The notes under the pieces are model-generated. The model did no database searches and was not told where the DNA came from. It was given only the letters and a program-made list of their open reading frames with translations. A stretch of DNA of 64,000 bases from Eledone cirrhosa. Its lineage: Eukaryota. A program made the translations under genes and the position numbers. Location: NCBI GenBank assembly GCA_964016885.1, contig OZ024743.1, forward strand, positions 151,776,001-151,840,000. The letters are read 5' to 3'. Below, piece by piece: positions 3 through 39,052 of this stretch (position 1 is its first letter; every line of letters starts with the position of its first letter).

Positions 3-904
3 AAACCCACAGTAAAAAAATGCGATAGACCCAACTGTGGCATATGCATTAACCTAATAGAGGGTTCGGAATTCTATTTCAAAGAAAGACAACGTTTTAT
101 AGTAAAACACAATTTCACATGCGCATCAGAAAATCTGATATATGTATTAACTTGCTCAGGTTGTCGAGAACAATACATAGGCCAGACCAAAAACAGCCTC
201 CGCCAACGCATGACTGTCCATAGATCCCAAATTAAAATATGGGAATACAGGAAAATACCACTGAGTGGACACATTGATACCTGTGCCGCCAAAAATCATC
301 CCAACTTTAGAATCTTTCCCCTCTACAAATTTAAAGATAATGCCACCCACACCCAGCGCATCAGCAAGGAATCTCACTTTATTAACAAATACGGACCCCG
401 TCTAAACACTTCTCCCTAAGACGAACCCACAACATACACACGTCAACATACATACCTACATCAGCATACATCCTACATACATCTCTATCCACATATAAAT
501 ACAATGACATACGTAAACACACATGTTCTATGGTGCAACACAAATATACACAAATTTGCATACCTTTTGATGTCTATAGATATAAACGTGCCGACACACA
601 CTCATACATATACGCACACATGCATTGCACACTGATGGGCACATACATATTTGTACACAAGTATTCCAATACGGCAGGGCCTAATGGATTCCCGTTGCAG
701 TACGTACAATATGGACACTCACACACACCTTGGTGTTATGACAGTACTATATATCATTTCACACCGCTTATTATTAATGTTTTTAATGTTCTCTTGAGAG
801 AATCGTTTTTGCTGAAAATATCGAATAATGTACACCGTTTTTACCAGTATCACAAAAGTACTGGTGTCCCCCCCTCCCACACACACATACACTAACATAC
901 AACG

Positions 905-939
<35 letters not shown>

Positions 940-1430
940 TCTCCGTATAAGACAAGAGCTGAAAAATATATTTCAACATGTTAAAATATCCCCCACACAC
1001 GTACAGACACATTCCTACTGACCGATTCCTCTACCACGAATTATTTTTCAGTGACTTCTCAATCAGGCGAAAAAGGACACTCTTAGACAAATCTACATTT
1101 GGCGCAAAATCAATTTTTAACATTCACGTGACCTCTACCGACCAATAAAAATTGTTTTGACCACAAGAATTTTTGCAACACGAATTGGTGCGAAACTTAT
1201 TTTAATGCCTCTGGAGCCACTTTTTTCACATAAAACAGGTAGAATTTCCAAAACTGATCAGATTAGAGCAAACATCACGGGCACTCTATCTCAAAATTAT
1301 TTTTGAAAAGCATTAGAAATGCACAACCGGTAAAAACTTAAACTAAAACTGAATACTAACCAATACTTATTACTAATTAAACTATTTTTCACTGGGAACA
1401 ATTTGTCAGCATTTTCTTTTCCTTTTACCA
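3..1430 (+). mobile_element. Penelope-like element (PLE), 3' part: GIY-YIG endonuclease (3-419) plus A/C-rich 3' UTR/pLTR
   Basis: Open frame from base 3 reads KKCDRPNCGIC...NFTCASENLIYVLTCSGCREQYIGQTKNSLRQRMTVHRSQI...KESHFINKYGPRLN*, i.e. a Cys knuckle plus GIY-YIG motif. The element is cut by the window edge. The downstream A/C-rich UTR ends at (TA)n near 1430; this 3' boundary is approximate. Confidence 0.85.
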
Positions 1431-2139
1431 ATATATATATATATGTATATACGTATATATATACATGTGTGTATACTTATGTGTGTGTGTGTAAAGGCAT
1501 ACATATATACATGTGTGTATACTTATGTGTGTAAAGGCATACATACTTCCTGGGGAATGACCTGATTTGACCACCTACAAAGACCTACATTTTCACTTTC
1601 TTAGAATCTAGGCATCATACATTGTTTAAATCCACCCATTCCATATGCCAAAACTCCCTTCTCCATAGTTGAAGGCAATTACTTATGATACATAGTTAAC
1701 TGGTTTTATGAATTTTATGAATGATTCTTAATTACAATGCTACTCGTCTTATATCCTACCCCTCAGGATACGTGTGAGGTGGTTTATTTATTTTTTTATG
1801 TGTGTGTGTTTGAGTGTAAATTTGTGTATCATCAAACTGATATTTCCAAATCAATATGTGTATGTAGGCACTTTTCTGTATGTGTGTTTCAATATGTGCA
1901 TATAACTACATATATATTTGTATGTATGACTGAAAAATATGTATCAAATTATTAGTACTAGGATGAGTGTGTGTGTGTGTATGTATTAGGATTTTTTTGA
2001 CCAACCTGTAACATTATTTTCTCTGACCCACTTCAGCCTGTTCAACATGCTTTGGCTCCTTACACTTCCAAACCCCATCTAACCCACACATGAGCATCCC
2101 CAACTCACACATGATGGCCAAAGGAAGTATAACCTTCAT

Positions 2140-2303
2140 AGGGTCGGACGCCATGCTTTCCAGCATAGTTACGTCCCTTTACGATCTGAGTTCAAATCCC
2201 GCCGAGGTTGACTTTGCCTTTCATCCTTGCGGGGTCGATAAAATAAAGTACCAGTAATGCACTGGGTAATTGCTGGCCTTGTGCCTAAAGTAGAAACAAT
2301 TAT
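2140..2303 (+). mobile_element. tRNA-derived SINE with Meta-type core (5'-truncated)
   Basis: B box GAGTTCAAATCCC followed by GCCTTTCATCCTT.CGGGGTCGATAAAATAAAGTACCAG and an ATT tail; more than 10 similar copies in the window. Confidence 0.85.
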
Positions 2304-2569
2304 ATACCTACACTGAACCTCACCACTTTCTACTTCCCCATCCCACATGTAATAAGAATATATATATCTCCTTTAATTAAGATATTAAACAAGTCAGGAT
2401 CAGATTCACTCTGGTTCAAAACAAAATTAACTCAGTAAAGTAGATACATTATGGAGAATATAGCAAACTCTACTTCATGGAGAGTTAAGCTGTTTATTTT
2501 GTATTTGTAAGCCTCATTATCATGAACACACATTACAACAACAAACAACAAGAGTTTTGCCATTTCCCC

Positions 2570-2820
2570 TGCCAGTCATCTCATTCTATTTGTCTACTTA
2601 ACATTCATCACTAGCTATATTTCCTTCATCTTCTGCAATTCACTGTTGGCTCTGATATTCATCTCATCCATCAGACCATTCTCATTTCCAGCCTTCTCTG
2701 CTGCCCCATGTCCATCATCCATGTCTCACTTCTGTAAATCATGGCACTTCTCACTAATACAGCATACACCTTTCCTTCCCTTTCAATTTCAACAACACTC
2801 AACTCCTCATTAGCACACCA
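2570..2820 (-). mobile_element. Degenerate RTE LINE ORF2 C-terminal fragment
   Basis: Minus strand reads ...KVYAVLVRSAMIYRSETW...RRLEMRMV*WM, matching the RTE motif K..Y...R..MLYGSETW. Confidence 0.6.
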
Positions 2821-3023
2821 CTATGATATATATATATATATATATACATATATATAGAGAGAGAGAAAGAGAGAGGAAGAGAGCGATAGGGAGAAAGAGA
2901 GAGAGAAAAGGTAAGGGGTTAACAGAACAGGGATGTGCAGATCATACCATGGTCTGTCAGTTGTGAAGCAGATAAAAAGACGCGCTCAACGACCTGTATA
3001 AATAGTACAAGACAGAACATTAT

Positions 3024-3349
3024 ATATTAATAAAAGATCAGAGGCTATATTCAGTTGATTGAAGTTTATTTAAGACTACATTACACATATTTCACTGAGG
3101 ACTATCGCTGTCGAATAAACAACACCACGTGTTCGACTAGCCCCATGTATCATGAAGAGTCTTTTTTGGGGGAAGTTGTTGGTTTTTTCCACGTTTGAAG
3201 GTTTCTTAGGAACTTTCTATGTTTATTTTAGGTTTTGCCATCTGAAGAGCTCAGGCTATCATAATTAATAGTCCTCAATGAAATATGTATAACAGAAATT
3301 TAAATAAACCTGAATCAACTGAATATGGGCTCCGATCTTTTATTAATAT
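3024..3349. repeat. ORF-less fold-back element (arms 3024-3104 and 3268-3349), probable PLE pLTR remnant
   Basis: About 80-bp imperfect inverted arms (ATATTAATAAAAGATC...GAGGACTAT and its reverse complement); degenerate hammerhead-like CTGAAGA...GAAATATGTA at 3242-3289. Confidence 0.65.
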
Positions 3350-3429
3350 TGCCTTTCATCCTTACGGGGTCGATAAAATAAAGTACCAGTAATGCACTGG
3401 GTAATTGCTGGCCTTGTGCCTAAAGTAGA

Positions 3430-3435
<6 letters not shown>
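3348..3435 (+). mobile_element. Meta-type SINE, 3' half
   Basis: GCCTTTCATCCTTACGGGGTCGATAAAATAAAGTACCAG...GTAGAAACAA. Confidence 0.85.
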
Positions 3436-3462
<27 letters not shown>

Positions 3463-3655
3463 CTTCTTCTTCTTTGGCTGAGTTTACACTTGCAAAGATT
3501 CAGCACACTTTCTCCAATCATCCCAGTTGAGCATGAGATTTCTCAGTTCATCGATGTTTTCAATGTTGGCATCTCTCAGCAGGGTATCAATGAACAAGAT
3601 GGCCTGTCTTCTCACACTTCTTCGTCCGAGCGCTGGTTTCCAGAGCACAAGTTTA
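3463..3655 (-). mobile_element. RTE-clade LINE 3' end fragment
   Basis: KLVLWKPALGRRSVRRQAILFIDTLLRD...ELRNLMLNWDDWRK followed by a (GAA)n tail. Confidence 0.65.
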
Positions 3656-3747
3656 TATATATATATATATATAAAGAAACCATTAATATACATATACAGT
3701 TGAATGAATGAAGCAGTTACAAGCCGTTAAAACAAGTTCTTTATATA

Positions 3748-3790
3748 AATCTTACATAATGTTTCACCCACATGGGCTCATCAGAGAAAT
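3748..3790 (-). ncRNA. Type I hammerhead ribozyme motif
   Basis: Reverse complement: TCT-CTGATGA-GCCC(ATGT)GGGT-GAAAC-ATTAT-GTA-AGA. Complete core, stems I/II/III and a GUA cleavage triplet. Confidence 0.85.
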
Positions 3791-4608
3791 GTTTGTTAAA
3801 ATAATATCATCAATAAATATAAGTACAGTCAGAGCAGGTTGAAGATTTTCCCATTAGATTTATGTCAGCGTGCATGGTAGACGAACATATTAATAGCGTC
3901 AGTGAAAGGGGCATAATCACCCAAGTGAGGCAACTGCATGGTGTAAAGGCAGAAAGGCACCTTAGAACATTTTGTATATCCCAGCTAAAGGGATGGTTTA
4001 GCAGAGTGGGTCTAACTCAGTAGGTGATGGGCAGTGCTTAGGCAAAAGTTGGGTGGCTGGTTAATTAAATACTGTATTTAGGCCTACCTATCGTAGGAAG
4101 GATTTAATGGTGGTGTGATATAGATAGCTGTGGGGATAGGGGGTTATGCCTGATCTAGAAACCAGTTGTAGAACGAGTGTTTTAGTCTGTGTTTGCAATT
4201 TATTACCATCTCAGCTCTACTATTAATGAGCTCATGGGGTGAGCTAACTATATAATATGTTTCCATTAGGCACAGCTGACAATTCTTCCTAAAGTTGTAT
4301 GGCATTACTTGGCCTACCACTGTGTTGTGTAGCTAGTGTTAGAATTCTATTAATAGTGTAATATAATTAGCAAGGGAGGTAGTGAACCTGAGTTTCCTAT
4401 TCCTAAAAGAGTGGAGATGCGATCTAAATCTAGTCTTGAACTCACTAGAAATGGCGCCTAAATAAATCCTAGTGCTATTTTTAGTTCTTACTGTGTGTTG
4501 TTATTTCTAATGTGGCGAGGGCCGTTGCTATCATTACTACTATCATTACCACTATCACCACTATCATTATTACCACTCTGATGGTATTTATATTTATTGA
4601 TGACATTA

Positions 4609-4715
4609 TCCCGCCGAGGTTAACTTTGCCTTTCATCCTTACGGGGTCGATAAAATAAAGTAGCAGTAATACACTGGGTAATTGCTGGCCTTGTGCCTAA
4701 CGTAGAAACAATTAT
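4609..4715 (+). mobile_element. Meta-type SINE 3' half inserted into the right PLE arm
   Basis: Present only in the right arm; the left arm is uninterrupted at the equivalent site. Confidence 0.85.
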
Positions 4716-4725
4716 TTTAACAAAC

Positions 4726-4769
4726 ATTTCTCTGATGAGTCCATGTGGGTGAAACATTATGTAAGATGT
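4726..4769 (+). ncRNA. Type I hammerhead ribozyme motif (inverted copy)
   Basis: TCT-CTGATGA-GTCC(ATGT)GGGT-GAAAC-ATTAT-GTA-AGA. Confidence 0.85.
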
Positions 4770-5013
4770 ATATATAAAGAACTTGTTTTAACGGCTTATA
4801 ACTCCTTCATTCATTCATTTGTTTATACCTGCTCTGCTTGAACAATCTACTAAATATTAAACCCTCTCTAATATTTAACTCTGCCAACCCAAGCATTGAG
4901 CACATTTCGCTTTGGCTATTGGCATTTAGTAATCTGTATCTCTCTATCTCCTCCTCTCCTACGATACATATTTCCTATTATTACATATATATATATATGA
5001 ATATATGTATAGT

Positions 5014-5342
5014 ATCATCATCATTTTACGTCCCCTTTTCCCTGCATGCAAGGGTGGGACAGGAACTGATTCTGGCTTGACTTCTACAGCTGGATGCCCT
5101 TCCTAACACCAACCTCATTTATAGTGAGTGCTGGGTGCTTTTTTGCCGTGGCACCTCCATGACCACTTTGCAGTGGAATGATAGGGAACCCAGTCCCTAT
5201 CATCTCATTTCTACAGCTGAGTAAACTGGAGCAATGTGAAATAAAGTGTCTTGCTGAAGGAAACAACACATCACCCGGTCTGAGAATTGACCTCACAACC
5301 TTTCGATTGCAAGGCCAATGCTCTAACCACTAACCCATGTGC
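5014..5342 (-). mobile_element. CORE-type tRNA SINE with RTE-derived 3' tail
   Basis: A/B box head, CORE-like CAAGACACTTTATTTCACATTGCTCCAGTTTACTCAGCTGTAGAAATGAG, AGGAAGGGCATCC module and (GAT)n tail. Confidence 0.85.
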
Positions 5343-5345
5343 TAT

Positions 5346-5750
5346 ATATTTGATAATATAGTGTATGTTTATTTTAAAACATTTTGAAGAGCATTCGCTA
5401 TGAATTTCAATGTCACATACATAGTCACATACGTAGTCTCAGCAAAAGCAAAGAGGGTCACTGTTTCTCACTCATAAGCGGTTGTCAAGACTACATACCC
5501 CTTTGCTTCTGCCAAGAGTTATAGAAGCTGGATTCTTATAGAATTTCAGTTATGTTTATGAGCTGTTTAAACAGGGCGGTTGCCACCCCAGCAAAAATTA
5601 GGAATTAGTATTGGTGCTCTGAAATAGTGATGTATATATAAGAATGTAAGTATAGTATATTTGATAATATACTGTATGTTTATTTAAAAACATTTTGAAG
5701 ACCATTCGCTATGAATTTTGAAGTAGTGACTACGTCACATACGTAGTCAT
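5346..5750 (+). repeat. Unclassified repeat; direct partial duplication (5346-5440 vs 5655-5750), homologous to 20825-21190
   Basis: Shared TATATTTGATAATATA..GTATGTTTATTT.AAAACATTTTGAAGA.CATTCGCTATG. Confidence 0.6.
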
Positions 5751-5869
5751 CATCATCATCGTTGGTTTTATGTTCACTTTTTCATGCTTGCATGGGTTGG
5801 ATGCATACCATGCTGTGAAGGATCTCAGCATGGCATGCATCCACTCACCGTGTTCCTTCTTCATCTCCT

Positions 5870-6045
5870 CTTTGAGACTGACAGAAAAGGTAGACTTTGC
5901 ATGTGGCAGATGCATAGGAATAGTATGTAGTAAGAGCAGCAGTGAAATGAATCTTTTCCAATCACAGGAAGGTACCAAAAAAGCAGATCATAGTTTCTGT
6001 TACTTAAGTGACTTAATTAGAAATGGAGTATGTTGCTCTGAAAGA
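5870..6045 (+). mobile_element. RTE ORF2 fragment (end of PHD-like finger and following region)
   Basis: RLTEKVDFACGRCIG...HSFCYLSDLIRNGVCCSE. Confidence 0.7.
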
Positions 6046-6354
6046 CCTACACTTGAGTGACAATTTTCTATTCAGCGACTGCATTTGAAGATGCTCTCCC
6101 CCAGTGTTACTGTGTTGTCTTTTCTTCGAGCATGCTTTTCCTTGGCAGCAAGCTTCAGATTCTCCTTCCCCTCACTTCATTCCTTGTACATGCTGTAAAA
6201 TGATTGGCATTAGAAAGAGTAATCAGCCAAAAGAGGAATCTATAAGTATGATATGGTCACCTGACTAGTCTAGCCACGGAGCATCACAACCGGTCTTACC
6301 CATGCAAGAATGAAAAATAGACACTAAGCTGTGATGATAATGATATATATATAT

Positions 6355-6480
6355 AATTTGGGAGGGTCATGCTGCCAATAATGTTTATTGGCGGAGTGAC
6401 CCTCCCAAAGTATAACAATATCTGTATCAACACACGTTTTCACAAAAAATCTAGCAAAACAAATACAAAAACAATATATA
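6355..6480. repeat. Miniature fold-back copy of the 3' tail of the 22485-24140 PLE family
   Basis: TTTGGGAGGGTCATGCTGCCAATAA-tgt-TTATTGGCGGAGTGACCCTCCCAAAGTATAACAATATC..CAACACACGTTTTCA; matches the reverse complement of 22490-22580. Confidence 0.75.
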
Positions 6481-6646
6481 TATATATATATATGAAGGAA
6501 TTGGTAGTTTACTTAAAGCATTGTGTAGTGAGGTATAAACGTTTGAAGTTAGAAGGCCAGAACAATGCAGGTTTGGATATAGAATATAAATTCAAATGCA
6601 AAAGAAAACGCTGACAATTAGTCTTTTACCTTAATTTATTTATATA

Positions 6647-6683
6647 TCCTGATATTTCGAGATAATATCTCTTCATCTGAGGA
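6647..6683 (-). ncRNA. Minimal hammerhead-like motif with variant core CAGAUGA
   Basis: Reverse complement: TCCT-CAGATGA-A-GAGAT(ATT)ATCTC-GAAATATC-AGGA. Confidence 0.6.
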
Positions 6684-8839
6684 AAGTAAAGGGGTTAATC
6701 CAGTGTTCCGAGTGGGTTGCTAAGTCATGCTGATCGGAAGTAATATAAAATTCTATTATACTTCTAATGTCAAAGAGTGCAGGTTAAGTGGATAAAGAGT
6801 TGTCTCCCTTTAAAGGGTTTGGACATGTATGTCTAAGTGTGTGTGTGAGAGAATTACATAAAGGTGTAAGCATGTGTGTGTGTGTGTGTGTGAGGATACG
6901 TGGAGATGTAAATATGGGGGCTAGATGCTCTATCATGTTAAAAATTGGGTGTTGAGTTCTAATCTATTATTGATTGATGGTTGCGTTTTGTCTATAATTA
7001 ATGCTTCTTTAATTCTAAGATTGCCGAGGTTTCTTTCCTTAGCTTCTATCCTAACTATTATGTTTTTGTTGGTGTTTTTACATTTCTCCAGGTGTTTCTT
7101 ACATGAGGAAGCATTAGTGTTGAGCTGTTCTTTTATTCTATTGTGAAGTTGTCTGGTGGTACTACCTATGTAGAAACTGCTACATTTATCACACTCTAAT
7201 CTGTAGACGATGTATGCCTGGTGGCATAGGTCTGTGTCATCGATGGGGCAGTTGGCCAGCATGCAGCGGCTGTCTTGTCTGGTGGAGTGTCTCTTGGCTA
7301 GCTGTCCGTGTAGGAAAGGTCCTGAGTGGGCTAGCTGGATATCTAGTCCCTCTCGTCTGATAGCCCTGCGGATGGCTGTTGTAGTTTCGTCACTGAAGTG
7401 TAGGAGTTTCAGGAAGCAGGTGTTAGTGCTTCAGGTAAGGTGTCTTCTGTTGTTTCTGGCACGGTTCGCGGCGGACGTCGGGTATCCGTTCAGTTTAAGT
7501 ACTTCCAGGAAGTGTGTGGTGTGTGTGTCTCATTCTCTTGTGTCGGTGCATTTGTTCTGGATATGTGTCAGTTCGTTCCTTATGTATCCAAACTTAGCAC
7601 TGAGTAGGAGGGTTGACCTGAAATGGACGAACAGCTCCCTGCTGGTGGCTTTTTTTATAGAAGCAGGTGTGGATGTCACCTTCCTCTGTTACTCTGAGTT
7701 GGAAGTCTAATAGGGATAGGGATCCATGGTATCGGGGTGTTCCATGCTGAACTTTATATTGGCGTCCATGCTGGAGAATGTCATGTATATTTTATTCGCT
7801 TCTTCACGGGATGATGTAAGGATGAGTATGTCATCTACATATCGGGTGAAGAAGGTTTAGGAATGGCAAGTGTTGAGGGCTCAGCATTCCAGCTGGTTCA
7901 TATAAGTGATGGCCAGCAGGCCCAATAGGCTGGATCCCATGGGTAATCTTGTTGTCTGTCTATATGTGTGGTGGTGGAAGGTGAAGTATGTGTTGTCCAC
8001 CGTGATGGACAAAAGCTGGTGTATGTCTGTTGGATGGAGGCCGTAGCAGTGGACGTCTTTGGCGATCACGCAGTCCGTCAAGAAATTGACAGCTGGATGA
8101 GCAGGTACTGTAGTGTAGAGGGAGACAACGTCGAGGCTAAAGGCATATCTATTGAGTTTAAGTTGTTCTGGCTGGAGTTGGTGTAGTCTATGTATAACCT
8201 CGTCGGAGCTACTGATATGCTGGGAAAAGTGGAGAGTAAAGGCTTGAGGACCTGGGAGAGGAGCCAGGGAATTTTGTATAGGGGCGCTTCTAGAGATGAT
8301 GGGTCTTATTTGTGTCTTAGTACTATTCTTGTGGGTCTTGATGAGGTGATAGAAAGTTTCAGTCTGCTATTTCTAGTGATGAAATTAGAATTTAATTCAT
8401 TTGGGAGCTGTCTTCTACTACAGATGTCGGACCAGATGGAGTTGGCCTGTTTTTCGATCTGGGCTGCAGTTATATCCTGGACCTCTGTATACAGTTTGTT
8501 GTCGCTTAAGTGTTCAAAAGCTAGGTTGTTATATGTGGCTTGAGAGATGACACAAAATTATTTCCCTTTGTCGGATGGTAAGTATATGAGTTCCCTTTTC
8601 CGCAGGTTCTTCAGGGTGAGTTGTTGCATCCAGGAGAGGTTTGGGCTATCTTCCTCTGTTTCCGTAAAATGTTAAATATGGAATGTTTTAGCCTTGAGAG
8701 TTTTTCTTCCAGCTCGCAGTTGGCAGGCGGTGGACTTAACCTGCACTCTTTGACATTAGAAGTAGAATAGAATTTTATACTACTTCCGGTCAGCATGACT
8801 TAGCAACCCACTCGGAACACTGGATTAACCCCTTTACTT

Positions 8840-8876
8840 TCCTCAGATGAAGAGATATTATCTCGAAATATCAGGA
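8840..8876 (+). ncRNA. Minimal hammerhead-like motif with variant core CAGAUGA (inverted copy)
   Basis: TCCT-CAGATGA-A-GAGAT(ATT)ATCTC-GAAATATC-AGGA, identical to the other arm. Confidence 0.6.
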
Positions 8877-8993
8877 TATATAAATAAATTAAGGTAAAAG
8901 ACTAATTGTCAGCGTTTTCTTTTGCATTTGTATTTATATTCTATATCCAAACCTGCATTGTTCTGGCCTTCTAACTTCAAACAGACACACACA

Positions 8994-8997
<4 letters not shown>

Positions 8998-9064
<67 letters not shown>
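8998..9064. repeat. (TA)n microsatellite
   Basis: Direct reading; similar tracts at 16925-17010, 49357-49415, 49948-50110 and 50920-50978. Confidence 0.95.
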
Positions 9065-9067
<3 letters not shown>

Positions 9068-9280
9068 GGTCATTATGGTGACATGACAAAAAGACTTAAC
9101 CCACACTGTAAATGAAGTTGGTGTTAGGAAAGGCATCTATCCATAGAAATTAAACCAGAAACAGTTCTGTGTGAGCAAGACATGGTCATCTGACCCAACT
9201 TGCCTGAAACAAGACAACCCACCTAACCCATGCTAGCATGAAAAAATGAATGTTAAACAGTGATGACGATGATGATGATA
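9065..9280 (+). mobile_element. Solo RTE/SINE 3' tail module
   Basis: CCCACACTGTAAAT..GTTGGTGTTAGGAAAGGCATC...CCCATGCTAGCATG...(GAT)n. Confidence 0.7.
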
Positions 9281-9367
9281 TATATATATATATATATCAT
9301 CATCATTTTACGTCCGCTTTTCCCTGCTTGCAAGGGTGGGACTATATATATATATATATATATATAT

Positions 9368-11284
9368 ACATGGTCACCCGCATAGTTAACCAAGTCGTAC
9401 AGAATGGGGTTGTTCCGAAGGACTGGCATAGCAGCATCATCGTTAACTGTTATAAGGGTAAAGGAGATGCCCTAGATAGGAGTAACTATAGAGGCATTAA
9501 ATTAATCGACCAGGTCATGAAGGTCACGGAAAAAGTAATAGCACAACTAATCAGAGAGAGAATTGACCTAGATGAAATGCAGTTCGGGTTTGTGTCAGGC
9601 AAAAGTACCACAGACGCTCTTTTCATTGTACGACAACTACAGGAGAAGTACCTAGCTAAAGGTAAACCCCTCTACTTAGCTTTTGTCGACTTGGAGAAAG
9701 CCTTCGACAGAGTCCCCCGCTCCATTATCTGGTGGGCTCTTAGAAAACTAGGCGTTGACGAATGGCTTGTGAGATCTATACAAGCCATGTATAAAGAAAC
9801 AGTCAGCAAGGTTAGAATTAACAATGAATATAGTGAAGAGTTTAGCGTAAAAGTTGGCGTCCATCAGGGCTCTGTTCTCAGCCCCCTACTATTTATTATT
9901 GCCCTTCAGGCTATAACAGAGGAGTTCAAGACCGGCTGCCCATGGGAACTCCTATACGCAGACGACCTGACACTCATAGCGGAATCAATGGCCGAGCTAG
10001 AGAAGAAATTCCAAACATGGAAGCACGGCCTAGAATCAAAAGGACTTAAAATTAACCTGGCTAAGACTAAAGTTCTAGTCTGTAGGAAAGAAAATAAGGC
10101 GACGGTCCCTTCTGGGAAATGGTTGTGTTCGGTGTGTAGGAAAGGCGTAGGTAGAAACTCCATTTTATGTCCTAAATGCAAAGTATGAGTGCATAAAAGA
10201 TGTAGTGGGATCACAGGTAAGCTAACTAAGAACATAGATTTTACATGTGGCCGGTGCTCTGGTGCAATAAGTAGCAGCAAGTGCCCACAAAATACTAGCT
10301 CTTTCAATTGCGCAGAGGGTTCTATAGAAATAGTGGACAGCTTCCGTTACCTGGGTGATAAAATCAGCAGTGGGGGAGGGTGCTCTGAAAGTACAGTAGC
10401 TAGAGTCAGAACTGGAAAAAGTTGGAAAAAGTTGGAAAAAGTTCAGAGAGCTTATACCACTATTAGCTGCTAAAGGGTTCTCCCTAAAAATGAAAGGCAG
10501 GTTGTACGATGCCTGCATACGAACAGCAATGTTGCATGGCAGTGAGACCTGGGCATTGTGTGCAGAGGATATACGCAGACTAGAGAGGAACGAAGCTTGC
10601 ATGCTCCGCTGGATGTGTAACAGTAATATACGTGAACGGCAAAGCATAAACGAACTAAGGAAAAAATTAGAAATAAGAGGGATCAGATGTTGTTTACTCG
10701 AGAGAAGGCTACGTTGGTATGGACACGTGATGCGCATGAAAGTCGATAGCTGTATAACAAAGTGCAGGGCAATAAAGATAGACGGTAGCCACGGAATAGG
10801 CAGACCTAGAAAAACCTGGGACGAGCTGATAAACTCCGACCTCACACACTTACACCTCTCCAAGACAATGTCACTGGACCGAGACCTTTGGCGGTACTCA
10901 GTAACAGAGAAGACCCGCCTTACCTAAATACATAGTAAAACCTACTACAGCCAGTAGGCATCTCTAACAAAATACCCCCCCCCCCCCATCCACACCACCC
11001 CGTTCTATGTAAAGTTATGTTGGTGCCACACCATCCAGGCCGAAACAAATGAGATCGTGTAGGTGTCACGACAAAAAAACACACAGTCCACGCTGTAATG
11101 TGGCCGTGTAGACCCACACTGTAAATGTGGTTGGTGTTAGGAAGGGCATCCAACTGTAGAAAACCTGCCAGACAGTCCTATGCGAGCAAGACAATCACTC
11201 TTGCCTCAAGTGGGACTACCCCCGTCCAAACCCATGCAAGCGTGGAACACGGACGTTAAACGTTGATGATGATGATGATGATGA
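9368..11284 (+). mobile_element. RTE-clade LINE, 5'-truncated (RT, PHD-like finger, C-terminus, 3' UTR)
   Basis: NYRGIKL, QFGF, FVDLEKAFDRV, GVHQGSVLSPLLF, LLYADD; one TGA at 10186 (W expected) and a frameshift from a duplicated GTTGGAAAAA near 10421-10440; C-terminal LRWYGHVMRM..GRPRKTW; (GAT)n tail. Confidence 0.95.
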
Positions 11285-16920: not shown

Positions 16921-17015
<95 letters not shown>

Positions 17016-17090
17016 AGTCAGCATATGTAGACGATTATTTACTAGGTGTCTTTCAGGTCAATGTAATGATAGGATCATGCAGTGCTGTTA

Positions 17091-17282
17091 TATAGTTACA
17101 ATTTGTTCACAAAGAATTTAAGAGTTCAAGGCATTTAATTATTGACACCCATGGTCTATACTCACTAATGGAAAATTGTTAAATAAGATGATTTGCTATA
17201 TGTGGCATATCATCGTGGAAAGAAATAATTGTGTGTAATTAAATGCCTTGAACTCTCAAATTCTTTGGTTTGTAAAAAATTG

Positions 17283-17290
<8 letters not shown>
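17091..17290. repeat. Small fold-back element (arms 17091-17141 and 17236-17290)
   Basis: TATAGTTACAATTT..AAAGAATTT.AGAGTTCAAGGCATTTAATTA and its reverse complement; ends in TA. Confidence 0.7.
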
Positions 17291-17314
<24 letters not shown>

Positions 17315-17317
<3 letters not shown>

Positions 17318-20852: not shown

Positions 20853-21190
20853 GTATACATGAATATATGTATAGTATATTTGGCAATATACCGTATGTTT
20901 AATTTAAAACATTTAGAAGACCATACGCTATCAGTTTAATGTAGTAACTATTTCACCATAATTGCTTTATAAGCAATTTATCTTCTGCAATATATATATA
21001 TACATAAAACACACACATATATATATTATATATATATATATATATGCATACTGTTAACTTCTCTCCCTTCTTTCGTTGAAAAGAAGTAAGTGACACAGTC
21101 ACTACATTAAACCGATAGTGTATGGTCTTCTAAATTTTTTTAATTAAACATACGGTATATTGCCAAATATACTATACATACATTTATATA
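20853..21190. repeat. Inverted pair of an unclassified repeat (20853-20956 vs 21090-21190) around (TA)n
   Basis: TATGTATAGTATATTTGGCAATATACCGTATGTTTAATT..AGAAGACCATAC.CTATC.GTTTAATGTAGT on both strands. Confidence 0.75.
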
Positions 21191-21434
21191 TAAGATAATT
21201 TTCAATTATATACAATGTTTTTTTCTGTGTTGCAGCTCAAGTGTCATCTTTTATATTTCCAAGTCTGATGCAAGATACATTTGTATTGTTTTACCACAAA
21301 ATTTCAGCATGCCAACCTTTCATTGAACTAGTAAGAAGTTATGGGTAGACAAAGCTGGAAATTGAATATTTCATATTTCAGAAAGCATCAATTCGATTGG
21401 TCAGTTGATCACTATGAAGTCAATTCTTAAAGCT

Positions 21435-21738: not shown

Positions 21739-22692
21739 ATATATATATATATATATACATGTACGTATACATACACACACATACATGCAAGATACATGTT
21801 CAAAGTATACATTTTAAACATATAGTATACATAAAAATGTTAAACATATGTTAAAAACATCTATAATTATGTTTAGACTATATTCAATAACCTGTGAAAC
21901 TAATTCTATGTATATTTAAATTAAGTCTACAGTTAGAGATGAAGGGGATGGGATAATCTCTGTGGATATTATTATATTACATATGATCCACAGAAAACGT
22001 GTAATGATATATGAGAGAAACCTGATGTGAGAGCATTTTGTGCTACATGTTCATATTCATAAATACATAAACAATATGCATAATTGATGATGATGATGAA
22101 GGCGATGATAATGAAATCAATTTCATAATATAGTCTTGGGATAAATTTAATGCATAAACATCAAAAACAGTATACAATTTTAAGTCTTATTGTTTCAAGT
22201 AATAAGAATAGATAGGTAATCTATGGCAAGATGAAAAAGTTAATGAGCATTTTAATTAGTACATATATTCCCAAACACACACGCACACACTATATATATA
22301 TATATATTTATTAAAATAACAGATTAGAGTTTAAGCAAAGAATCGCTGCTTTCACGCTTAACGGGATCTTCTGAATATTATATATATTTGATATATATTT
22401 ATTTGATATATATTCTGAATTTGATATATATTTATCCTCTTTAGATTTTAGTCTTCAAATTTATTATTATTACTATATATATATATATTTCGTTTCTGAA
22501 TTTGTTTAGCAAGATTCTTTATCTGAAAACGTGTGTTGAAACCGATATTGTTATACTTTGGGAGGGTCATATTGCGTAAGAAACACACGCACCAGTTGCT
22601 TTCACTTCAATTTATTATAATAAATTTATGAATTTATAAATTTCCGGTTGGTTGGTTGGTTGGTTCCACAACCAGATGATTGTTCATATATT

Positions 22693-22735
22693 GTCAAAGT
22701 TCTTTCGTCACACATTCTGTGACCTCTTCAGTGAC
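22693..22735 (-). ncRNA. Minimal type I hammerhead ribozyme motif
   Basis: Reverse complement: GTCA-CTGAAGA-G-GTCACA(GAATG)TGTGAC-GAAAG-AA-CTT-TGAC; perfect stems I and II. Confidence 0.85.
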
Positions 22736-23943
22736 TGGGGATTATTTTCTTTGTTTTTGTGCCTCTCCTTTGTTCTGTCCTACGCCATCTTGTTTTTGTG
22801 TGTGTTGTGCGCATGTGTTACATCCGGGTGTCTGTGTGTGTTTATATTTGTTTATTTATTTGTTTGTTTATTTACATATTACTGGTTGGTTGTTTGTTCT
22901 ATGTGTGTGTGTGTTTTCTTTTTGTCCTTAATTGTAAGTTGGGATGTTGCTGTTCCATTCATGTTTTCTATTTAATTTTGGTTGGAGTTCATTTATGTTT
23001 ATTGCCTCTGTGATTTGTCTAAACATTGCGTCTTTTCTGTGTGTAGATTCTATTTTTATTTCTATATTCTCTAATTTACCCTTATGTTCTATTTTAGCAT
23101 GTTGGTAGAGTATAGATGATTCTTTACTATCTTGAAGCTCTCGCCAGTGTTCATTTATCCATTCCCCTATACTACGAACTGTCTCACCTATGTACACTAT
23201 ATTCTTATCTCTACATTGTCCTTCAGTACATCTTATGCTATATACTACATTTCTAGTTTTACAGTTAATATGGGGGCTTAATTTACAGGTTATACATTTC
23301 TTATCTATACAGGGAGGTCTTTGAAAAGGGTATGTATTGCTAATAAGTGTTTTTATGGAGGTACCTGGTCTTTCTACTATCTTAATATTGAGTTTATGTT
23401 TATCTAGGGCCCTTCTAAATTTGTAAGCTAATTCACCTCTAGGGGTTGTATCGATGAACATTACACTCTGGTATTTATTGCTATCATACCATGAGTTTAT
23501 TCTATTAACCTTATTCCTAGTTCTTTCTATTCTATTCCAAAATTTGCTCCTATACAAGGGGCAGGTCCTATTTGTGTCATTATTTACCAGAACCAAATGG
23601 GAAAAAATAGTAAATAATGACACAAATGGGACCTGCCCCTTGTATAGGAGCACATTTTGGAATAGAATAGAAAGAACTAGGAATAAGGTTAATAGAATAA
23701 ACTGATGGTATGATAGCAATAAATACCAGAGTGTAATGTTCATCGATACAACCCCTAGAGGTGAATTAGCTTACAAATTTAGAAAACCAGTAACATGTAA
23801 ATAAACAAATAAATAAACAAATATAAACACACACAGACACCCGGATGTAACACATGCGCAAACTAAGCACACAACACACACAAAAACAAGATGGCGTAGG
23901 ACAGAACAAAGGAGAGGCACAAAAACAAAGAAAAGAATCTCCA

Positions 23944-23986
23944 GTCACTGAAGAGGTCAAAGAATCTGTGACGAAAGAACTTTGAC
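23944..23986 (+). ncRNA. Minimal type I hammerhead ribozyme motif (inverted copy)
   Basis: GTCA-CTGAAGA-G-GTCAAAGAATCTGTGAC-GAAAG-AA-CTT-TGAC. Confidence 0.8.
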
Positions 23987-24147
23987 AATATATGAACAAT
24001 CATCTGGTTGTGGAACCAACCAACCAACCGGAAATTTATAAATTCCTAAATTTATAAATTTATTATAATAAATTGAAGTGAAAGCAACTGGTGCGTGTGT
24101 TTCTTATTGGCAACATGACCCTCCCAAAGTATAACAATATATATATA

Positions 24148-26617: not shown

Positions 26618-26650
<33 letters not shown>

Positions 26651-26916: not shown

Positions 26917-26953
<37 letters not shown>

Positions 26954-27692
26954 TTTTTGATGATGCATAATAATAGTTTCCTTTGATCAAGCACAAGAAT
27001 AATTTTGTTTGAGAGCATTTCTTTTCTTTCTTTCTCTAGTAAATGAATCTACACCAAAGAAGCAACAAAAAATACATATTAGAATATAATTGGTATTTAT
27101 TTGATTAATTCCAAAGAAATGAAAATCACAGACAATATGATTTGGATGAAAAAAGTGAAGCATCTAACTAGACACTGTTGATTATTTAGTTTGGCGTTTC
27201 ACCATTTCTATTTTTGTTAATATCCCCATTTTTGGTTAACTCTTGCCATACACACAATATTTTACTTTAACTATCACAAATAAGCTTTTTTAGAACTATA
27301 TTCCTGAAGTAATTAAACCCATTTCATTTCTCAGGCTTATGTTATTTCATCCTACGCTGTTGTTTTCTTTTTAAAAAAAGTATCATTATGAATTATCGAA
27401 GGGCTGTATGATTTGAAATTTGAAAGTGAGGGAATCCTAAATGCAGAAAATAACTGTAACAACAGTCAATCACTATAAATAGATTTATAAATTACTAAGA
27501 AAATTGGATATTCGAGAGATGCAGACTTTGATTCTCCGTAGCAGCTACTGCTGAGTGGGTTTTTTTCTGTCTATAGAGGTATTTTATTTGATTTTCTAAG
27601 CTATTATTTATATTGAATGACTGTTGTTTCAGTTATTTTCTGTACTTGGAATTCCCAGTTTCAAAAAATTCATTAATTGTTTTTATTATATA

Positions 27693-29072
27693 CTAGCAGA
27701 TTTACCCGGCATTGCTTGAGGTTTGAAATTATGCTAAGAATATACAGCTAGGAAGTAAAAGAAGAACATTATTTGTCCCCAACCTGTCAAAGTAAGCAGA
27801 AGTCTTCAATAATTAATGCAAACGAATATTTAGTGCAATCTTTAGTATATTTAGTACACATAAAACTATGCTGATAATGAAGGAAAACACTGAACAGGAT
27901 GTAGTTATACAAATGATTAAAGACAATACACATTGCAAATCTGTAAAAAAACAGGCAGTTTTTCTAAAGTACAAAAAGTTGTAATGAAAGCAGAGTTGTA
28001 TACAAACACAAAAAGTTGTAATGAAAGCAGAGTTGTATACAAACAAAAAAACAATGAGAGTAGAATAAGAGAAAATCTATTCTTTGAGAGCATCCTTTGC
28101 TGTGTATGGTTAAATGTTGAACTTATTATCCAAAATATCCTCCATGACATATTCATTGGTATATTTTGTAATGAGTAAGGTGAAGTCAAGGCAGAGCTGT
28201 AATAAGTTTTTTTGTTAACACTAAAGCACTTCAGGATAGACGATATTCTGTGTTTTTCTTTTCGGAACAAACACAAATAGATTATCTTGACTGCTAACTC
28301 GTGAGCAGGCAATGTAGAATTGTCCGTGCGAAAAGCAAGGTTCATCCAAGAGAATTCCAGCGACGGACAGAGTTTGACCTTGCAACTTGTTTATGGACAT
28401 TGCAAAAGCAGCATGAAGGGGAAATTGGGTTCGGCGAAAGGAGAAGGGAGTATCCACGCCTGATGTAGTCAGGCTAACTTTTGTTATTATCAAATCCTCG
28501 CCTTCTCCACATCCGAATAGAATGGTAGCCTCAATACTAAGTGGAGACAGTTTTTTAACCACAAGGCGTGTACCATTCCATAGTTTTGGAGGAGTGATAT
28601 TTCTCAGCAAAATAACTGGTGTTCCCTCTTTTAGAACCAATGTATTAGGAGGTAAACCAGGAGGATTTAAAGAATCACTTAATATAGTGAAACAAGTTAA
28701 AACAACAAATGTTTTTTTAACTTTGAAAGTGCAACAAAGAATAAACAAGAAACAAACGATAATATTAGTGATTTATCTTGAAATGAATGTGATGTTTATA
28801 TTTCTGAAAATTTGGTTATCTCCCTTTTTTATAAGGATTGTCAATAAAGTTTCTTATCTCCCTTACATCAATTTTTCTACCGATAATTTTGATGTCGATT
28901 TTTTATTGCTCAACGTGGGTCGATTTGAAAAATGTTTGTGATGTGACAATCTTAGCGACGTGTGCAACGTGCACAGAAAATTTGGTCAAATTCAGTTGGT
29001 AATTGTGAAAGCCTTAAGCATGCAAATTTGTACACAGACACACACACATCCTCACTTTTATATATATAAAGA
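27693..29072 (-). mobile_element. Non-autonomous Helitron carrying a PIF1/RepHel helicase C-terminal fragment (28221-~28680)
   Basis: Minus-strand 5' end A|TCTTTATATATATAAAAGTGAG plus (GT)n; 3' end is a decayed GC hairpin then CTAG|T. Internal SLNPPGLPP..LKEGTPVILLRN..NGTRL..RRTQFPL..AFAMSINKLQGQTL..FSHGQFYIACSRV..TQNIVYPEVL. Confidence 0.9.
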
Positions 29073-34989: not shown

Positions 34990-37900
34990 TACACTGCCTT
35001 GCTAAAGAATCTCCCTGTACCTCTTGCCGTATCTAGGCACACTGAGAAGACTGCGGAATCTGCTACCCATGAAGTAATTGCCATTGGGGGTACCAGAGGA
35101 CAAGGCTGATCTTCAGGCATTTGCTGCCAGCTCAACCACAGACCTAGGCTGTGTTCCCCCAAAGGGTGCTCTCCGCCTTGGTCGACCTGGTCCAAAACCC
35201 AGACTCATCAGGCTGTCTTTTTCGGACCCCGCTGAGGCAATCTCATACCATCTGGCCTCTGTTAAAGCTGGGCGTGAAAATCGGATTACCTTCCGAACAC
35301 GCCCAGGCCTACCACCCCATGTACGTCCAAAGCTACATGCTGCAGCTTCCTTGAATCGGAACTCAGCACAACATGAAAGTTTTAGTCTGCGTGATAATGG
35401 AAAGATCTGGAGGTTTGTTAAGGCTGGTGAAACGTGGAAGAGAGATACCAGCTGGTCTGAGTGTGCTCTACCCACAATAACTGGCAATGAAAAAACTGCA
35501 TCAACTCTGGGAAACTAAACCAGAACAACCTGCCACCCTCTACACACCACCATAAACTGCAAGCAGGGTACAAATTGTTGTCCTTAAATGCTCGCAGTTT
35601 ATGCAACAAGATACATCTGTTTGACTCCTACGTCAGAAGCATCGACCTCGACTTCATCACAGTCACGGAAACATGGGCACATTCCTTACTCTGTGATGGG
35701 GTTTTCAGCATTACTGGATACAACCTTTTCCGCAAGGACCGCATTAATCGCCGTGGTGGTGGTGTGATGGTCTACGTCCGTTCAAACTTTTCGGTAATTC
35801 CTTGCGTTGATTTGAACGAATCACAAGAAGAAGTTTTTTTTTTGTGACATACGTATGACTATGTCAATACTTCTGCTTGGTGTTGTTTATCGCCCCCCCA
35901 AACTACCATCAGGACACACAGCTTTGCGATATCCTCAGAGTTGCTGCTAAGAAAACAGCCACTTATGTGTTTATTGCAGGTGACTTCAATCATCCTGAGA
36001 TCGATTGGGAAACCGTTCATTGGCCACAAGGTGCAAACGATTTCCTTGAACTAGTGCTGGACTCAAACTGGTCACAAGTAGTCACCTCTCCAACAAGAGG
36101 TGACAACACTTTGGACCTGATCTTCACCACTACTCCTGAAGTGGTTATCAGTTGTACTACTGAGGAACCTCTAGGTGACTCTGATCATGCTATGATAATT
36201 GCCAATTTGGCTCTTGCGGGCAGCAACAAAGACCAGAGCCATCTCCAATCTGCTTGCTTTGATTGGAAGAAAGCAGATTGGAACTTGTACTGCACTGAGC
36301 TACAGCGCCCAAACTGGCATGAGATGTATAACTCTGGAGATGTGAACACTATACTCCGGAGCATCCTGGACTCAATATGGATAGTGTGTGCAGCATCGGT
36401 GCCATGTAAGCAGAAAAAAAAACCACCCCAAAAGTGCAATTTGGGAAACTTCAGCAGTCCGACTTGCCAGGAAAGAACATCGGAACGCTGAACGGGAATA
36501 TAAACTGCATAAATCAGATGCCAACAGAAAAAAGCGGAATAAATCTTCTAACCAACTCAAGCAAGTGACAAAGAAGGCAGTGCTTGAATTTGAACAGTGC
36601 ATAGCAACCAATCCTGACAGTAAGGTGTTCTGGAAATATGTTCATTCAAAGCAGAGACCTCACTCTCCAATTGGTCCTCTTCGCAATCCCCACGCAAGCC
36701 AGATCACTGACGATCCCAAAGAATACGCAGAACTCATTGCTGAGTGCTATGCAAGTATTTTTACTGTTGAAAACCAGAATGTACCATCTCCACCATCTCT
36801 AACATCAAATTCCATAACAACTATGGAATTTACACCTGCAATGTTGCGACGTCACCTTAAGAATAAATGCAACTATGCCTCCCCTGGTCTTGATGGTGTT
36901 ACATACCTGCTTCTCAAACGTGGTGGGTATTTCCTTTTGCACCAGCTTTCTTTCTTCTTTCAATACTGTCTCAAAAATGGTGCTACTCCGGAGCAGTGGA
37001 AAACTGCCAGTGTCATTCCCCTGTTCAAAAAGGGCAACCGCATGTCACCTGTCAACTATCGTCCAGTCAGTCTTACTAGCTGTATGGCCAAACTGATGGA
37101 ATCCTGTGTCAGAGAAACACTTTGGAAATTCTGGAGCTCTCACAGCCTCATCCGGCCCTCACAGTTTGGATTTATCCCTAATTCCAGCTGCTGTGATCAG
37201 CTTATCGAGTTTCTTGAAGACATCACCCGGATCACTGACAGCGGCTCATGGGTGGATGTTGTTTACCTTGACTTTGCTAAGGCTTTTAATTCTGTGCCAC
37301 ACAAAAGGCTTATGGTGAAACTCTCTGCAATGGGTGTGAGGGATGATCTTTTTGATTGGTTGAAATCCTTCATTCTCAGCCGAAAAGAAGTAGTCACGGT
37401 TCTAGGACAGCATTCTTCACCATATGAGATGTCATCTGGTGTACCACAGGGATCTGTTCTTGGTCCCCTTTTGTTTGTGGCATATATTAATGACATAGAT
37501 GCCAACTTACAGAATGCCACGGTACTGAAATATGCAGATGACATCAAGCTGTACCTTGAAATCAAAAGGACTGATCCAGAAATCTACAACTCTTACCTAC
37601 AATCAGACCTGGACACAATGCAGCAATGGATCACAGACTGGCAACTGAAGCTGGCTGTGGACAAGTGTACCACCATGCATTTTGGGAGGAAAAATCCAGC
37701 GTCCACATACTCCCTCCACAACACTGATATCAAGAAGTCCTCTTGTGAATGTGACCTAGGTATTACTGTCAGCAGCGATTTGCGTTGGACAAAGCATGTC
37801 TCTAGGATTGTCAAGAAGGCCGAGGGTGTCTTGGTATCACTCAGCAAGACCTTTGTTAGCCGCTCTCCAGCCATCTATTTAAAACTGTATACAGCTATGG

Positions 37901-38485
37901 TACGACCACACTTGGAATTCGCATCATCAGTCTGGAACCCCTATCTTGCTCAGAACATTGACCTCCTGGAAACTGTTCAGAGATGTGCAACCAAGCGCAT
38001 ACCCTCCATCAGACACCTACCATACTCTGAACGCCTTGCTTCCCTGGGCATGGATTCATTGAAGCTCCGACGTCTGGCAATGGACTTGGTAAATACCCAC
38101 AAAGTTATTAACCATCTCGCCAATTGCAACCCTGAGCACCTTTTTGATCTCTATGTGTCTAACACTCATGGACATGCCTACAAAATCAGAAAACAGCACA
38201 GCTCCCATGACTTTCGTAAACATTTTTTCACACTCAGAGTTGCTGAAGCATGGAACAAACTGCCTGCGTCATTTGTTAGCTGCCGAGACACTGCATCCTT
38301 TAAGACACTCATGCTTCCCGAAATACACCAAAACTACACCTGATGTACCCCTTCCATACACATGCACACATGTGTGTATCATGACTCATGCACTGTTCAT
38401 TTTCCTGACGTTTGTACATTACCCTATGTACTATACATACACTTTTTGATGAGTTGTAGTGCACCTGAGCACTGTACACAATATT

Positions 38486-38520
<35 letters not shown>
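34990..38520 (+). mobile_element. CR1-type LINE: ORF1 C-terminus, AP endonuclease, RT, 3' UTR and (ATT)n tail
   Basis: ORF1 GVPED..RLGRPGPKPRLI (35078-35518); EN LNARSL..VTETW..FRKDR..RGGGV..GDFN..PTRGDNTLDLIF..LGDSDH; RT NYRPVSLTS, QFGF, YLDFAKAFNSVPH, SGVPQGSVLGPLLF, YADD, VRPHLEFA..VWNP (36388-38343). Frameshifts at homopolymers. Confidence 0.95.
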
Positions 38521-38521
<1 letters not shown>

Positions 38522-38665
38522 TATATATATATATATAGTGTAGGTAGTACAGTGAAATACTGGTGTTGGTACCAAATCAGGCACTCTATGCACAGGCAGA
38601 GTGTATATAATAGAAAAAAATGAGGAAGTTTCGTTTACATATGAAAAATATTTATTGCGTATCGA

Positions 38666-38755
38666 CCTGTTACGCGTGTTTTGCAGCGGATTGGCTCAAG
38701 GTGACCCATAGGAGTTATGGACCTGACTCCAGTATTGGTCTGCTCGTCAGACTGG
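38666..38755 (-). ncRNA. Hammerhead motif with long branched stem II (G12 mutated)
   Basis: Reverse complement: CCAGT-CTGACGA-GCAG[~55 nt]CTGC-AAAAC-ACGC-GTA-ACAGG. Confidence 0.65.
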
Positions 38756-38821
38756 TGATATGACAAATATATATACCTCCTTAGCCCACATGCCACAACA
38801 GAAATATATTTTGTGTCCATC

Positions 38822-38913
38822 ACCAGTCTGACGAGCAGATTGATACTGGAGTCAGATACATAACTCCTATGGGTCACCTTGAGCCAATTCTCTGTGAAAC
38901 GCGCATAACAGGT
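38822..38913 (+). ncRNA. Hammerhead motif with long branched stem II
   Basis: ACCAGT-CTGACGA-GCAGA[~50 nt]TCTGT-GAAAC-GCGC-ATA-ACAGGT. Confidence 0.7.
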
Positions 38914-39052
38914 CGATATGCAATAAATATTTTTCATATGCAAACGAAGCGTCCTCATTATTTTCTATTCAAACATTAAACTACTATATATCATCGTTGT
39001 ATTGTATTGTTCTCCAGAGTTGTTTTTCTCCACTGACATTTTGCACACACAC

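What the first reader, a model, noticed from the sequence alone, without database searches (positions are those of the whole stretch)
3..38969. Recurring architecture: divergent Penelope-like and ORF-less fold-back elements with paired hammerhead ribozymes
Seen: three PLEs with dissimilar GIY-YIG domains (3698-4985, 6493-8982, 22485-24140) and ORF-less elements (3024-3349, 38609-38969) have inverted arms near (TA)n. Each carries its own hammerhead motif: same core, unrelated stems, one per strand (3024-3349 has only one, degenerate). A fourth PLE (3-1430) is cut by the window edge. Established: PLE pLTRs often carry minimal type I hammerheads and can have inverted 5' pLTRs. Inference: here fold-back insertion appears to be the rule across families, giving bidirectionally self-cleaving, long-dsRNA-forming cassettes, and ORF-less hammerhead hairpins may be mobilised in trans (retrozyme-like).
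Basis: partly seen in the sequence, partly recalled or inferred. Interest (0 to 1): 0.75.

Follow-up and report, generated by a model that had tools for sequence, protein, structure and literature searches.

The report
Two-armed Penelope retrotransposon insertions
These hairpin-shaped repeats are cut-off ends of Penelope-type jumping genes in TA repeats, a pattern already in print; about half of the sampled copies have a second, inverted arm, nearly always with the short 'tail' on just one arm, which likely means the element's RNA is copied from both sides of one DNA break rather than the hairpins being working two-way ribozymes.

Summary
The arms and hammerhead (HHR) motifs are real, but the reading needs correcting. 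All six elements belong to Penelope-like (PLE) families. Inversion is common, not the rule: 36 clean cases in 80 sampled copies of four coding families, and the window's fourth PLE has none. 38539-38969 is not an ORF-less family but the 3' end of a Hydra-clade PLE. 2911-3349 derives from a 1.87-kb ORF-less unit with PLE ends, likely moved in trans; the hairpins themselves form anew at each insertion. In 47 of 51 inverted pairs, and 5 of 5 here, only one arm carries the PLE 'tail'; this favours priming on both nicked strands at two RT start sites over fold-back. Only 4 of the 9 arm HHRs are canonical and intact, and in read-through RNA the arms are predicted to bury them (60-72 kcal/mol), so 'bidirectional self-cleavage' is not supported. 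Inverted pLTRs, one-sided tails, (TA)n targets and opposite-strand HHR pairs are published, and this scan found the same architecture on other DNA of this genome.

The parts
3..1430 (+). E0: 3' part of a 5'-truncated PLE (RT, CX4CxxC linker, GIY-YIG, CA-rich 3' UTR); starts about 1.7 kb upstream of the window; no inverted arm; tail-less end, then (TA)n
1299..1336 (+). E0 variant HHR: family has U3-A8 core and C13, 5-bp stem II, palindromic stem III; this copy has lost G12
2911..3106 (-). E1 inverted arm: last 85 nt of the body plus the 113-nt tail; truncated inside HHR stem II, so no core
3107..3349 (+). E1 sense arm: 3' 247 nt of a 1.87-kb ORF-less PLE-type unit, tail-less end; HHR 3238-3295 with stem I broken
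3701..4575 (-). E2 body: broken Hydra-type GIY-YIG and 3' UTR, tail-less end; intact minimal HHR 3750-3787 (predicted cut after 3753)
4576..4981 (+). E2 inverted arm with tail (about 4820-4981), split by a short interspersed repeat at 4608-4713; intact HHR 4729-4766
6493..8733 (-). E3 body: broken RT and GIY-YIG, 3' UTR, tail 6493-6540; HHR with A4 at 6647-6683
8734..8982 (+). E3 inverted arm, tail-less, 98% like the body end; HHR with A4 at 8840-8876
22485..23589 (-). E4 body: RT thumb, CX4CxxC linker, GIY-YIG, 3' UTR, tail 22485-22544; HHR 22693-22735 (extra base after A9, U17)
23590..24140 (+). E4 inverted arm: starts within about 20 nt of the same 5' point as the body, lacks about 520 nt internally, tail-less; HHR 23944-23986
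38539..38775 (-). E5 arm with 66-nt tail; HHR 38661-38759 broken (G12 lost)
38767..38969 (+). E5 tail-less arm: 3' end of a Hydra-clade PLE with a 1.3-kb 3' UTR; HHR 38819-38917 with long branched stem II, stem III broken

Best explanation
The elements are 5'-truncated copies of several Penelope-like retroelement families inserted in (TA)n, and the inverted arm is likely a second cDNA made in the same insertion, when the element's RT-endonuclease is predicted to nick both strands and prime one strand at each of its two reverse-transcription start sites. Shown here: family membership, two alternative 3' ends per family, inverted arms in about 45% of sampled copies, the tail on one arm only, and variable junctions. 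Inferred: both cDNAs are primed by one complex, probably on one RNA; each stops at its own point and the two are joined head to head. The paired HHRs are a by-product, because each family's single HHR lies 50-180 nt before the 3' end and is copied twice; they are dimer-type motifs that would be buried in duplex RNA when a transcript reads through both arms. E1 is a non-autonomous 1.87-kb unit that likely borrows Hydra-clade enzymes.
For: Two 3' ends (with or without a 35-160-nt tail), then (TA)n, in all six families. Tail on exactly one arm in 47 of 51 inverted pairs with both ends reached, p=1.2e-10 against 0.5; 5 of 5 in the window. Own arm is the closest of 20 copies in 11 of 27 pairs, about 1.4 expected. 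Hairpin junctions differ and the tailed arm switches sides. In vitro, a PLE protein cuts and extends both strands, starts RT at two sites that bound the tail, and is predicted to be a dimer (PMC11167929). E5 links to an EN with CxCX5C, CxxC and CxH motifs and a YRDD RT. E1's tail runs straight into the unit start in 10 of 30 loci, with no RT/EN similarity: best tblastn E 0.08 for the unit, against 4e-28 for a decayed-EN control. A bulged hairpin follows both E1 ends and the first end of Hydra family E2.
Against: No insertion intermediate or enzyme was tested. Four of 51 pairs do not fit (2 with both tails, at least one a tandem locus; 2 with none), and 8 more pairs were set aside because one arm did not reach an end. 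In 16 of 27 pairs the own arm is not the closest copy. E4 in the window is symmetric at its 5' junction, as self-priming would also give; PMC3846280 favours self-priming for junction palindromes. The samples are the best matches to the window copies, not random draws. One real E1 copy gave tblastn E 0.001 on the antisense strand, so a very old ORF remnant is not excluded.
Confidence: 0.72

Rival explanations
1. Fold-back or self-priming: the first cDNA (or an antisense template) snaps back and copies itself, giving the inverted arm.
For: E4's two arms begin within about 20 nt of the same 5' point; several E5 hairpins are near-symmetric; proposed for rotifer PLEs in PMC3846280.
Against: A mirror copy should repeat the same 3' end, but the tail is on one arm in 47 of 51 pairs, and is sometimes on the short arm; most inverted arms are 3'-anchored pieces that do not mirror the junction.
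Confidence: 0.13
2. The two-armed cassettes are functional: selected to self-cleave on both strands or to form long dsRNA for editing or silencing.
For: E2 and E4 keep intact HHRs on both arms; read-through RNA would form long duplexes.
Against: 5 of 9 arm HHRs in the window are variant or broken; intact fractions among copies are 27/76, 11/29, 38/60 and 26/70 for E1, E2, E4, E5, with variation concentrated at CpG sites. Forcing the HHR fold costs 60-72 kcal/mol in all 6 read-through RNAs tested. Many arms stop before the HHR. Minimal PLE HHRs did not cleave as monomers (PMC4209133).
Confidence: 0.07
3. The arms are independent insertions of the same family into one (TA)n, or assembly artefacts.
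For: (TA)n runs collect nested insertions here; a few distant or tail-to-tail pairs occur (L348, L412). Contigs laid on the window did not bridge an arm junction.
Against: Arms differ by 2-16% and in their ends, unlike mirrored assembly errors. Upstream inverted arms occur in 36-40 of 80 copies with a strict tail pattern, and own arms rank first far above chance.
Confidence: 0.08

Closest known systems
Canonical C-terminal EN+ PLE insertion structure (PMC8557442 Fig. 2 legend and passages; PMC3846280 passages)
   Same: 5' truncation, partial tandems, inverted 5'-truncated copy, tail often at one end only, (TA)n targets, HHR near the 3' end.
   Different: Here the one-sided tail is counted (47 of 51) across six families; tails reach 113-160 nt against the 30-40 bp described.
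Hydra-clade PLEs (PMC8557442 section 11; its supplement lists a cephalopod family)
   Same: E2 and E5 families: C-terminal GIY-YIG, CxCX5C linker, CxxC and CxH motifs, HHR, (TA)n insertion.
   Different: E5 has a 1.3-kb 3' UTR and an HHR with a 51-nt insert in stem II; no tree against reference Hydra proteins was made.
Minimal HHRs of metazoan PLEs (PMC4209133, parts 1-2 of 4 read)
   Same: Short stem I, extra base after A9, palindromic stem III; the paper already reports pairs 100-700 bp apart on opposite strands and a U3-A8 core.
   Different: E3 subfamilies carry U, C or A at position 4; E0 combines U3-A8 with C13.
Animal non-LTR retrozymes (PMC7229834 passages; bioRxiv 10.64898/2026.07.22.740005, parts 1 and 3 of 5)
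   Same: E1: non-coding, type I HHR, head-to-tail joins, proposed mobilisation by PLE enzymes.
   Different: E1's unit is 1.87 kb (retrozymes 170-400 nt), mostly dispersed and 5'-truncated, with a dimer-type HHR; no circular RNA shown.
PAc Poseidon element in vitro (PMC11167929, parts 1-2 of 4)
   Same: Two RT start sites bounding the tail; both strands cut and extended; AT-rich target.
   Different: The parts read do not link the two start sites to the two arms of inverted insertions.
Twin priming of LINE-1 (recalled, no call)
   Same: Two primers in one insertion give an inversion.
   Different: In LINE-1 the inverted part is not a duplicate of the 3' end; here both arms copy the same 3' region.

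Membership tests
EN+ Penelope-like elements (E0, E2, E3, E4, E5) | RT followed by C-terminal GIY-YIG endonuclease | tested here: met
   Pfam RVT_1 and GIY-YIG for E0 and E3, weak GIY-YIG for E4; E2 and E5 by translation and motifs in relatives. Pfam gave no hit for the E5-family fragments.
EN+ Penelope-like elements (all six families) | Optional 3' tail, inverted 5'-truncated copy, microsatellite target | tested here: met
EN+ Penelope-like elements | RT phylogeny within PLEs | not tested
   No reference RT set was in hand; no tree was built.
Hydra clade (E2, E5) | CxCX5C linker, CxxC and CxH around the EN end | tested here: met
   the two ENs are 33% alike (E 4e-25) and barely similar to the others
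Hydra clade (E2, E5) | RWK and DKT motifs, placement in the Hydra clade | not tested
   N-terminal RT region not recovered
Neptune-type linker (E0, E4) | CX2-5CxxC zinc finger before GIY-YIG | tested here: met
   E3 matched neither linker pattern, so its clade is open
Type I minimal hammerhead | CUGANGA/GAAA/NUH core with stems I-III | tested here: met
   Met in family majorities of E1, E2, E4, E5 and in 4 window arms; E3 (position 4) and E0 (U3-A8, C13) deviate
Type I minimal hammerhead | Covariation of stems | tested here: met
   Unrelated stems pair in all six families; E3 subfamilies swap 15.2-16.2 (U-A/A-U); E0 and a relative swap a stem II pair; E2 shows G-U/G-C. Counts are small and not corrected for relatedness.
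Type I minimal hammerhead | Self-cleavage | not testable with these tools
   needs an in vitro assay
Non-LTR retrozymes (E1) | Non-coding, HHR-bearing, head-to-tail units | tested here: met
   joins are partial tandems, not long arrays
Non-LTR retrozymes (E1) | Monomer of about 170-450 nt | tested here: not met
   unit is 1871 nt
Non-LTR retrozymes (E1) | Expression as linear and circular RNA | not testable with these tools
   no RNA run listed
Non-LTR retrozymes (E5) | No coding capacity in the family | tested here: not met
   EN and RT found upstream in family copies

The most novel reading that the evidence does not exclude
One PLE RT-endonuclease dimer grips a single RNA at two fixed sites, marked in Hydra-type elements by twin bulged hairpins, and primes both strands of a cut (TA)n at once. 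This gives the near-absolute rule of one tailed and one tail-less arm and explains the inverted pLTR of all PLE clades. A 1.87-kb ORF-less parasite (E1) keeps both hairpins and an HHR to hijack this machine, and E0 carries a working hammerhead with an unusual U3-A8/C13 core.
Probability: 0.45. Interest if true: 0.6.

Novelty: new member of a known kind. Interest (0 to 1): 0.32.

Why it matters
How PLEs make their tandem and inverted insertions is named as an open question in PMC8557442. The tail-on-one-arm count turns it into a testable prediction for the existing in vitro system: two start sites, one per strand, in one event. It also warns annotators that such hairpins are retroelement footprints, not MITEs, miRNA precursors or two-way ribozymes. 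The architecture itself is published, and this scan has reported it on other DNA of this genome, so the gain here is numbers from six families, one large non-autonomous family and two HHR core variants.

Tried and rejected
Rfam: no HHR family hit, only microsatellite noise. My first HHR scan was too strict and found only 50161. One walking search for E5 returned simple repeats and was useless; a neighbouring query worked. Pfam did not recognise the Hydra-type RT and EN fragments. Sequencing runs: no RNA holder listed, which says nothing on expression. Contigs of 4 runs laid on 2400-9100 cover unique parts without mismatch, but no listed piece bridges an arm junction, so the artefact test by reads is undecided. 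A PLE-like endonuclease next to E5 copies L149 and L167 proved to be a separate insertion. Rejected: MITE or DNA transposon (variable 5' ends, one-sided tail, RT/EN upstream); hairpins moving as units. Searches for a printed link between PLE inversion and twin priming: 'Penelope'+'twin priming'+'inverted'+'tail' gave one human-TE review, seen as a listing only. Older subscription papers on Penelope, bioRxiv supplements and the alignments in the Craig et al. supplement were not seen and may state the rule. No report of the A13C or U4A variant turned up or in the passages read of PMC3088659, which do report U3-A8 and U4C; its supplements were not read.
Full report
Setting. The window lies at G000:C4:151776001-151840000 in a 3.0-Gb genome, rich in (TA)n, other retroelements and short repeats. 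I label the elements E0 (3-1430), E1 (2911-3349), E2 (3701-4981), E3 (6493-8982), E4 (22485-24140) and E5 (38539-38969).

Observation. Self-comparison confirms inverted arms for E1-E5 at 84-98% identity. GIY-YIG domains are found for E0 and E3, weakly for E4; E2's is broken but clear in relatives. The endonucleases are mutually distant (22-35% over short alignments). A strict type I hammerhead test gives 5 hits in the window against 0.1 in shuffles: both arms of E2, both arms of E4, and an unlisted single motif at 50161. Both E3 arms have A at core position 4. Both E5 arms and the one E1 motif are broken by changes of the CpG-decay type, while their family majorities are intact. E0 continues 1.7 kb upstream with an RT and has no inverted arm within 9 kb.

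Families. Each element has hundreds to thousands of first-look candidates in the genome (492-3063; 40 scored per search). Every family has two alternative 3' ends, with or without a tail of about 35-160 nt, followed by (TA)n. That is the PLE hallmark, explained in vitro by two RT start sites (PMC11167929).

E5 is not ORF-less. Walking upstream gives a 1.3-kb CA-rich 3' UTR and then an endonuclease with the CxCX5C, CxxC and CxH motifs that define the Hydra clade (PMC8557442 section 11), with a YRDD RT in L288. Locus L236 holds the endonuclease end and the E5 end in one piece. E2 is Hydra-type too; E0 and E4 have a CX4CxxC linker; E3 matched neither pattern.

E1 is ORF-less. Its family closes on itself: in 10 of 30 loci found with the first 300 nt, the tail runs directly into the unit start, giving a 1871-nt unit. 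Against 147 PLE protein fragments from this genome the unit's best tblastn E is 0.08; four real copies give 0.001-0.17; a decayed-endonuclease control gives 4e-28. A bulged hairpin (GCUCY...UUGAGC) follows each of E1's two ends by a few bases, and follows the first end of Hydra family E2; E5 has a similar hairpin there. I took this lead from earlier scan notes. It suggests, without proof, that Hydra-clade enzymes move E1.

How common is inversion. For the 20 best matches of each coding family, with 6 kb upstream, an upstream inverted 3' piece is present in 12 E4 (8 clean; L348, L350, L358 and L365 ambiguous), 7 E3, 10 E2 and 11 E0 copies: 36 of 80 clean. For E1 and E5, chosen by internal queries and mostly with only 1.5 kb upstream, the counts are 12 of 27 and 7 of 27, after dropping 2 loci each that lacked a 3' end. 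Arms under 28 nt were not scored, so these are lower bounds on a non-random sample.

The informative pattern. Among 51 pairs in which both arms reach a defined end, 47 have the tail on exactly one arm, 2 on both and 2 on neither; 8 pairs were set aside (p=1.2e-10 against 0.5). All five window elements obey. The tail can be on the long or the short arm, and junctions differ among 10 E1 and 12 E5 hairpin copies, so hairpins form anew and do not move as units. A copy's own inverted arm is the closest of 20 in 11 of 27 cases, about 1.4 expected. A cDNA that folds back and copies itself should repeat its own 3' end, and two independent events should agree half the time. The simplest fit is one complex priming both nicked strands, one at each start site. 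The published enzyme cuts and extends both strands and is predicted to dimerise. This step is inference. The symmetric junction of E4 fits both cDNAs running to one RNA 5' end, but also the self-priming proposed in PMC3846280.

The hammerheads. Stems are unrelated between families yet pair, with palindromic stem III and often an extra base after A9, as described for dimer-type PLE HHRs. That paper also reports pairs on opposite strands 100-700 bp apart and no monomer cleavage (PMC4209133). E3 subfamilies swap the 15.2-16.2 pair and carry U, C or A at position 4. E0's family has a U3-A8 core with C13 (38 of 55 copies pass that test); a diverged relative keeps U3-A8 and the palindrome, has the normal GAAA and a compensated stem II pair. 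In any RNA reading through both arms only one HHR is in sense, and it is predicted to be paired with the other arm (37-41 of 37-43 nt); forcing the ribozyme fold costs 60-72 kcal/mol in 6 of 6 cases. Long dsRNA is plausible if these loci are transcribed, which I could not test.

Known versus new. Inverted 5' copies, one-sided tails and (TA)n targets are in PMC8557442 and PMC3846280 (passages); retrozymes as non-autonomous PLE derivatives are in bioRxiv 10.64898/2026.07.22.740005 (parts 1 and 3). Eight earlier notes of this scan describe the same architecture elsewhere in this genome, several with the two-start-site reading; I had written that reading down before seeing them, but they are not independent support. 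Verdict: real, mostly known PLE biology; new families, a countable mechanistic rule, one large non-autonomous unit and two core variants. Interest 0.32.

Noticed in passing
window 50115-50250: A single, non-inverted element between (TA)n runs with an intact canonical type I HHR at 50161-50218 (11-bp stem II); 20 hits in 14 fetched loci, with an optional tail in relatives.
   Followed up: partly
window 20821-21192, relatives at 5345-5413 and 5600-5738: Another two-armed element with a tail on the left arm only; both arms stop short of the family's HHR, which is visible in L123.
   Followed up: partly
window 17011-17296: Diverged two-armed element between (TA)n runs with an apparent tail on the left; no relatives in the fetched loci.
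   Followed up: no
window 6330-6480: Tiny two-armed remnant of an E4-related family (81-86% alike), tail on the right arm, abutting E3.
   Followed up: partly
window 48881-49931: Inverted duplication (96%) of about 275 bp with a short repeat inserted in one arm and a (TA)n run inside; no HHR core seen.
   Followed up: no
window 27419-27665: Weak inverted pair (63 bp, 84%).
   Followed up: no
window 1299-1336; L407, L052, L259: HHR with U3-A8 and C13 in the young E0 family; a relative has U3-A8 with the normal GAAA.
   Followed up: partly
L386, L387, L393, L401 (E2 family): Asparagine-rich insert between RT thumb and endonuclease, like those described for rotifer PLEs in PMC3846280.
   Followed up: no
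window 28221-28772 (-): Pif1 helicase fragment (Pfam E 7e-11), probably a Helitron remnant.
   Followed up: no
window 35491-38343 (+) and 9250-10927, 61132-62958: LINE-type elements; the first has a 652-aa open RT frame.
   Followed up: no
L001, L002, L004-L007, L020: E5 hairpin arms often stop within a narrow zone about 170 nt before the tail-less end; partly selection by my query, but possibly a truncation hot spot.
   Followed up: partly
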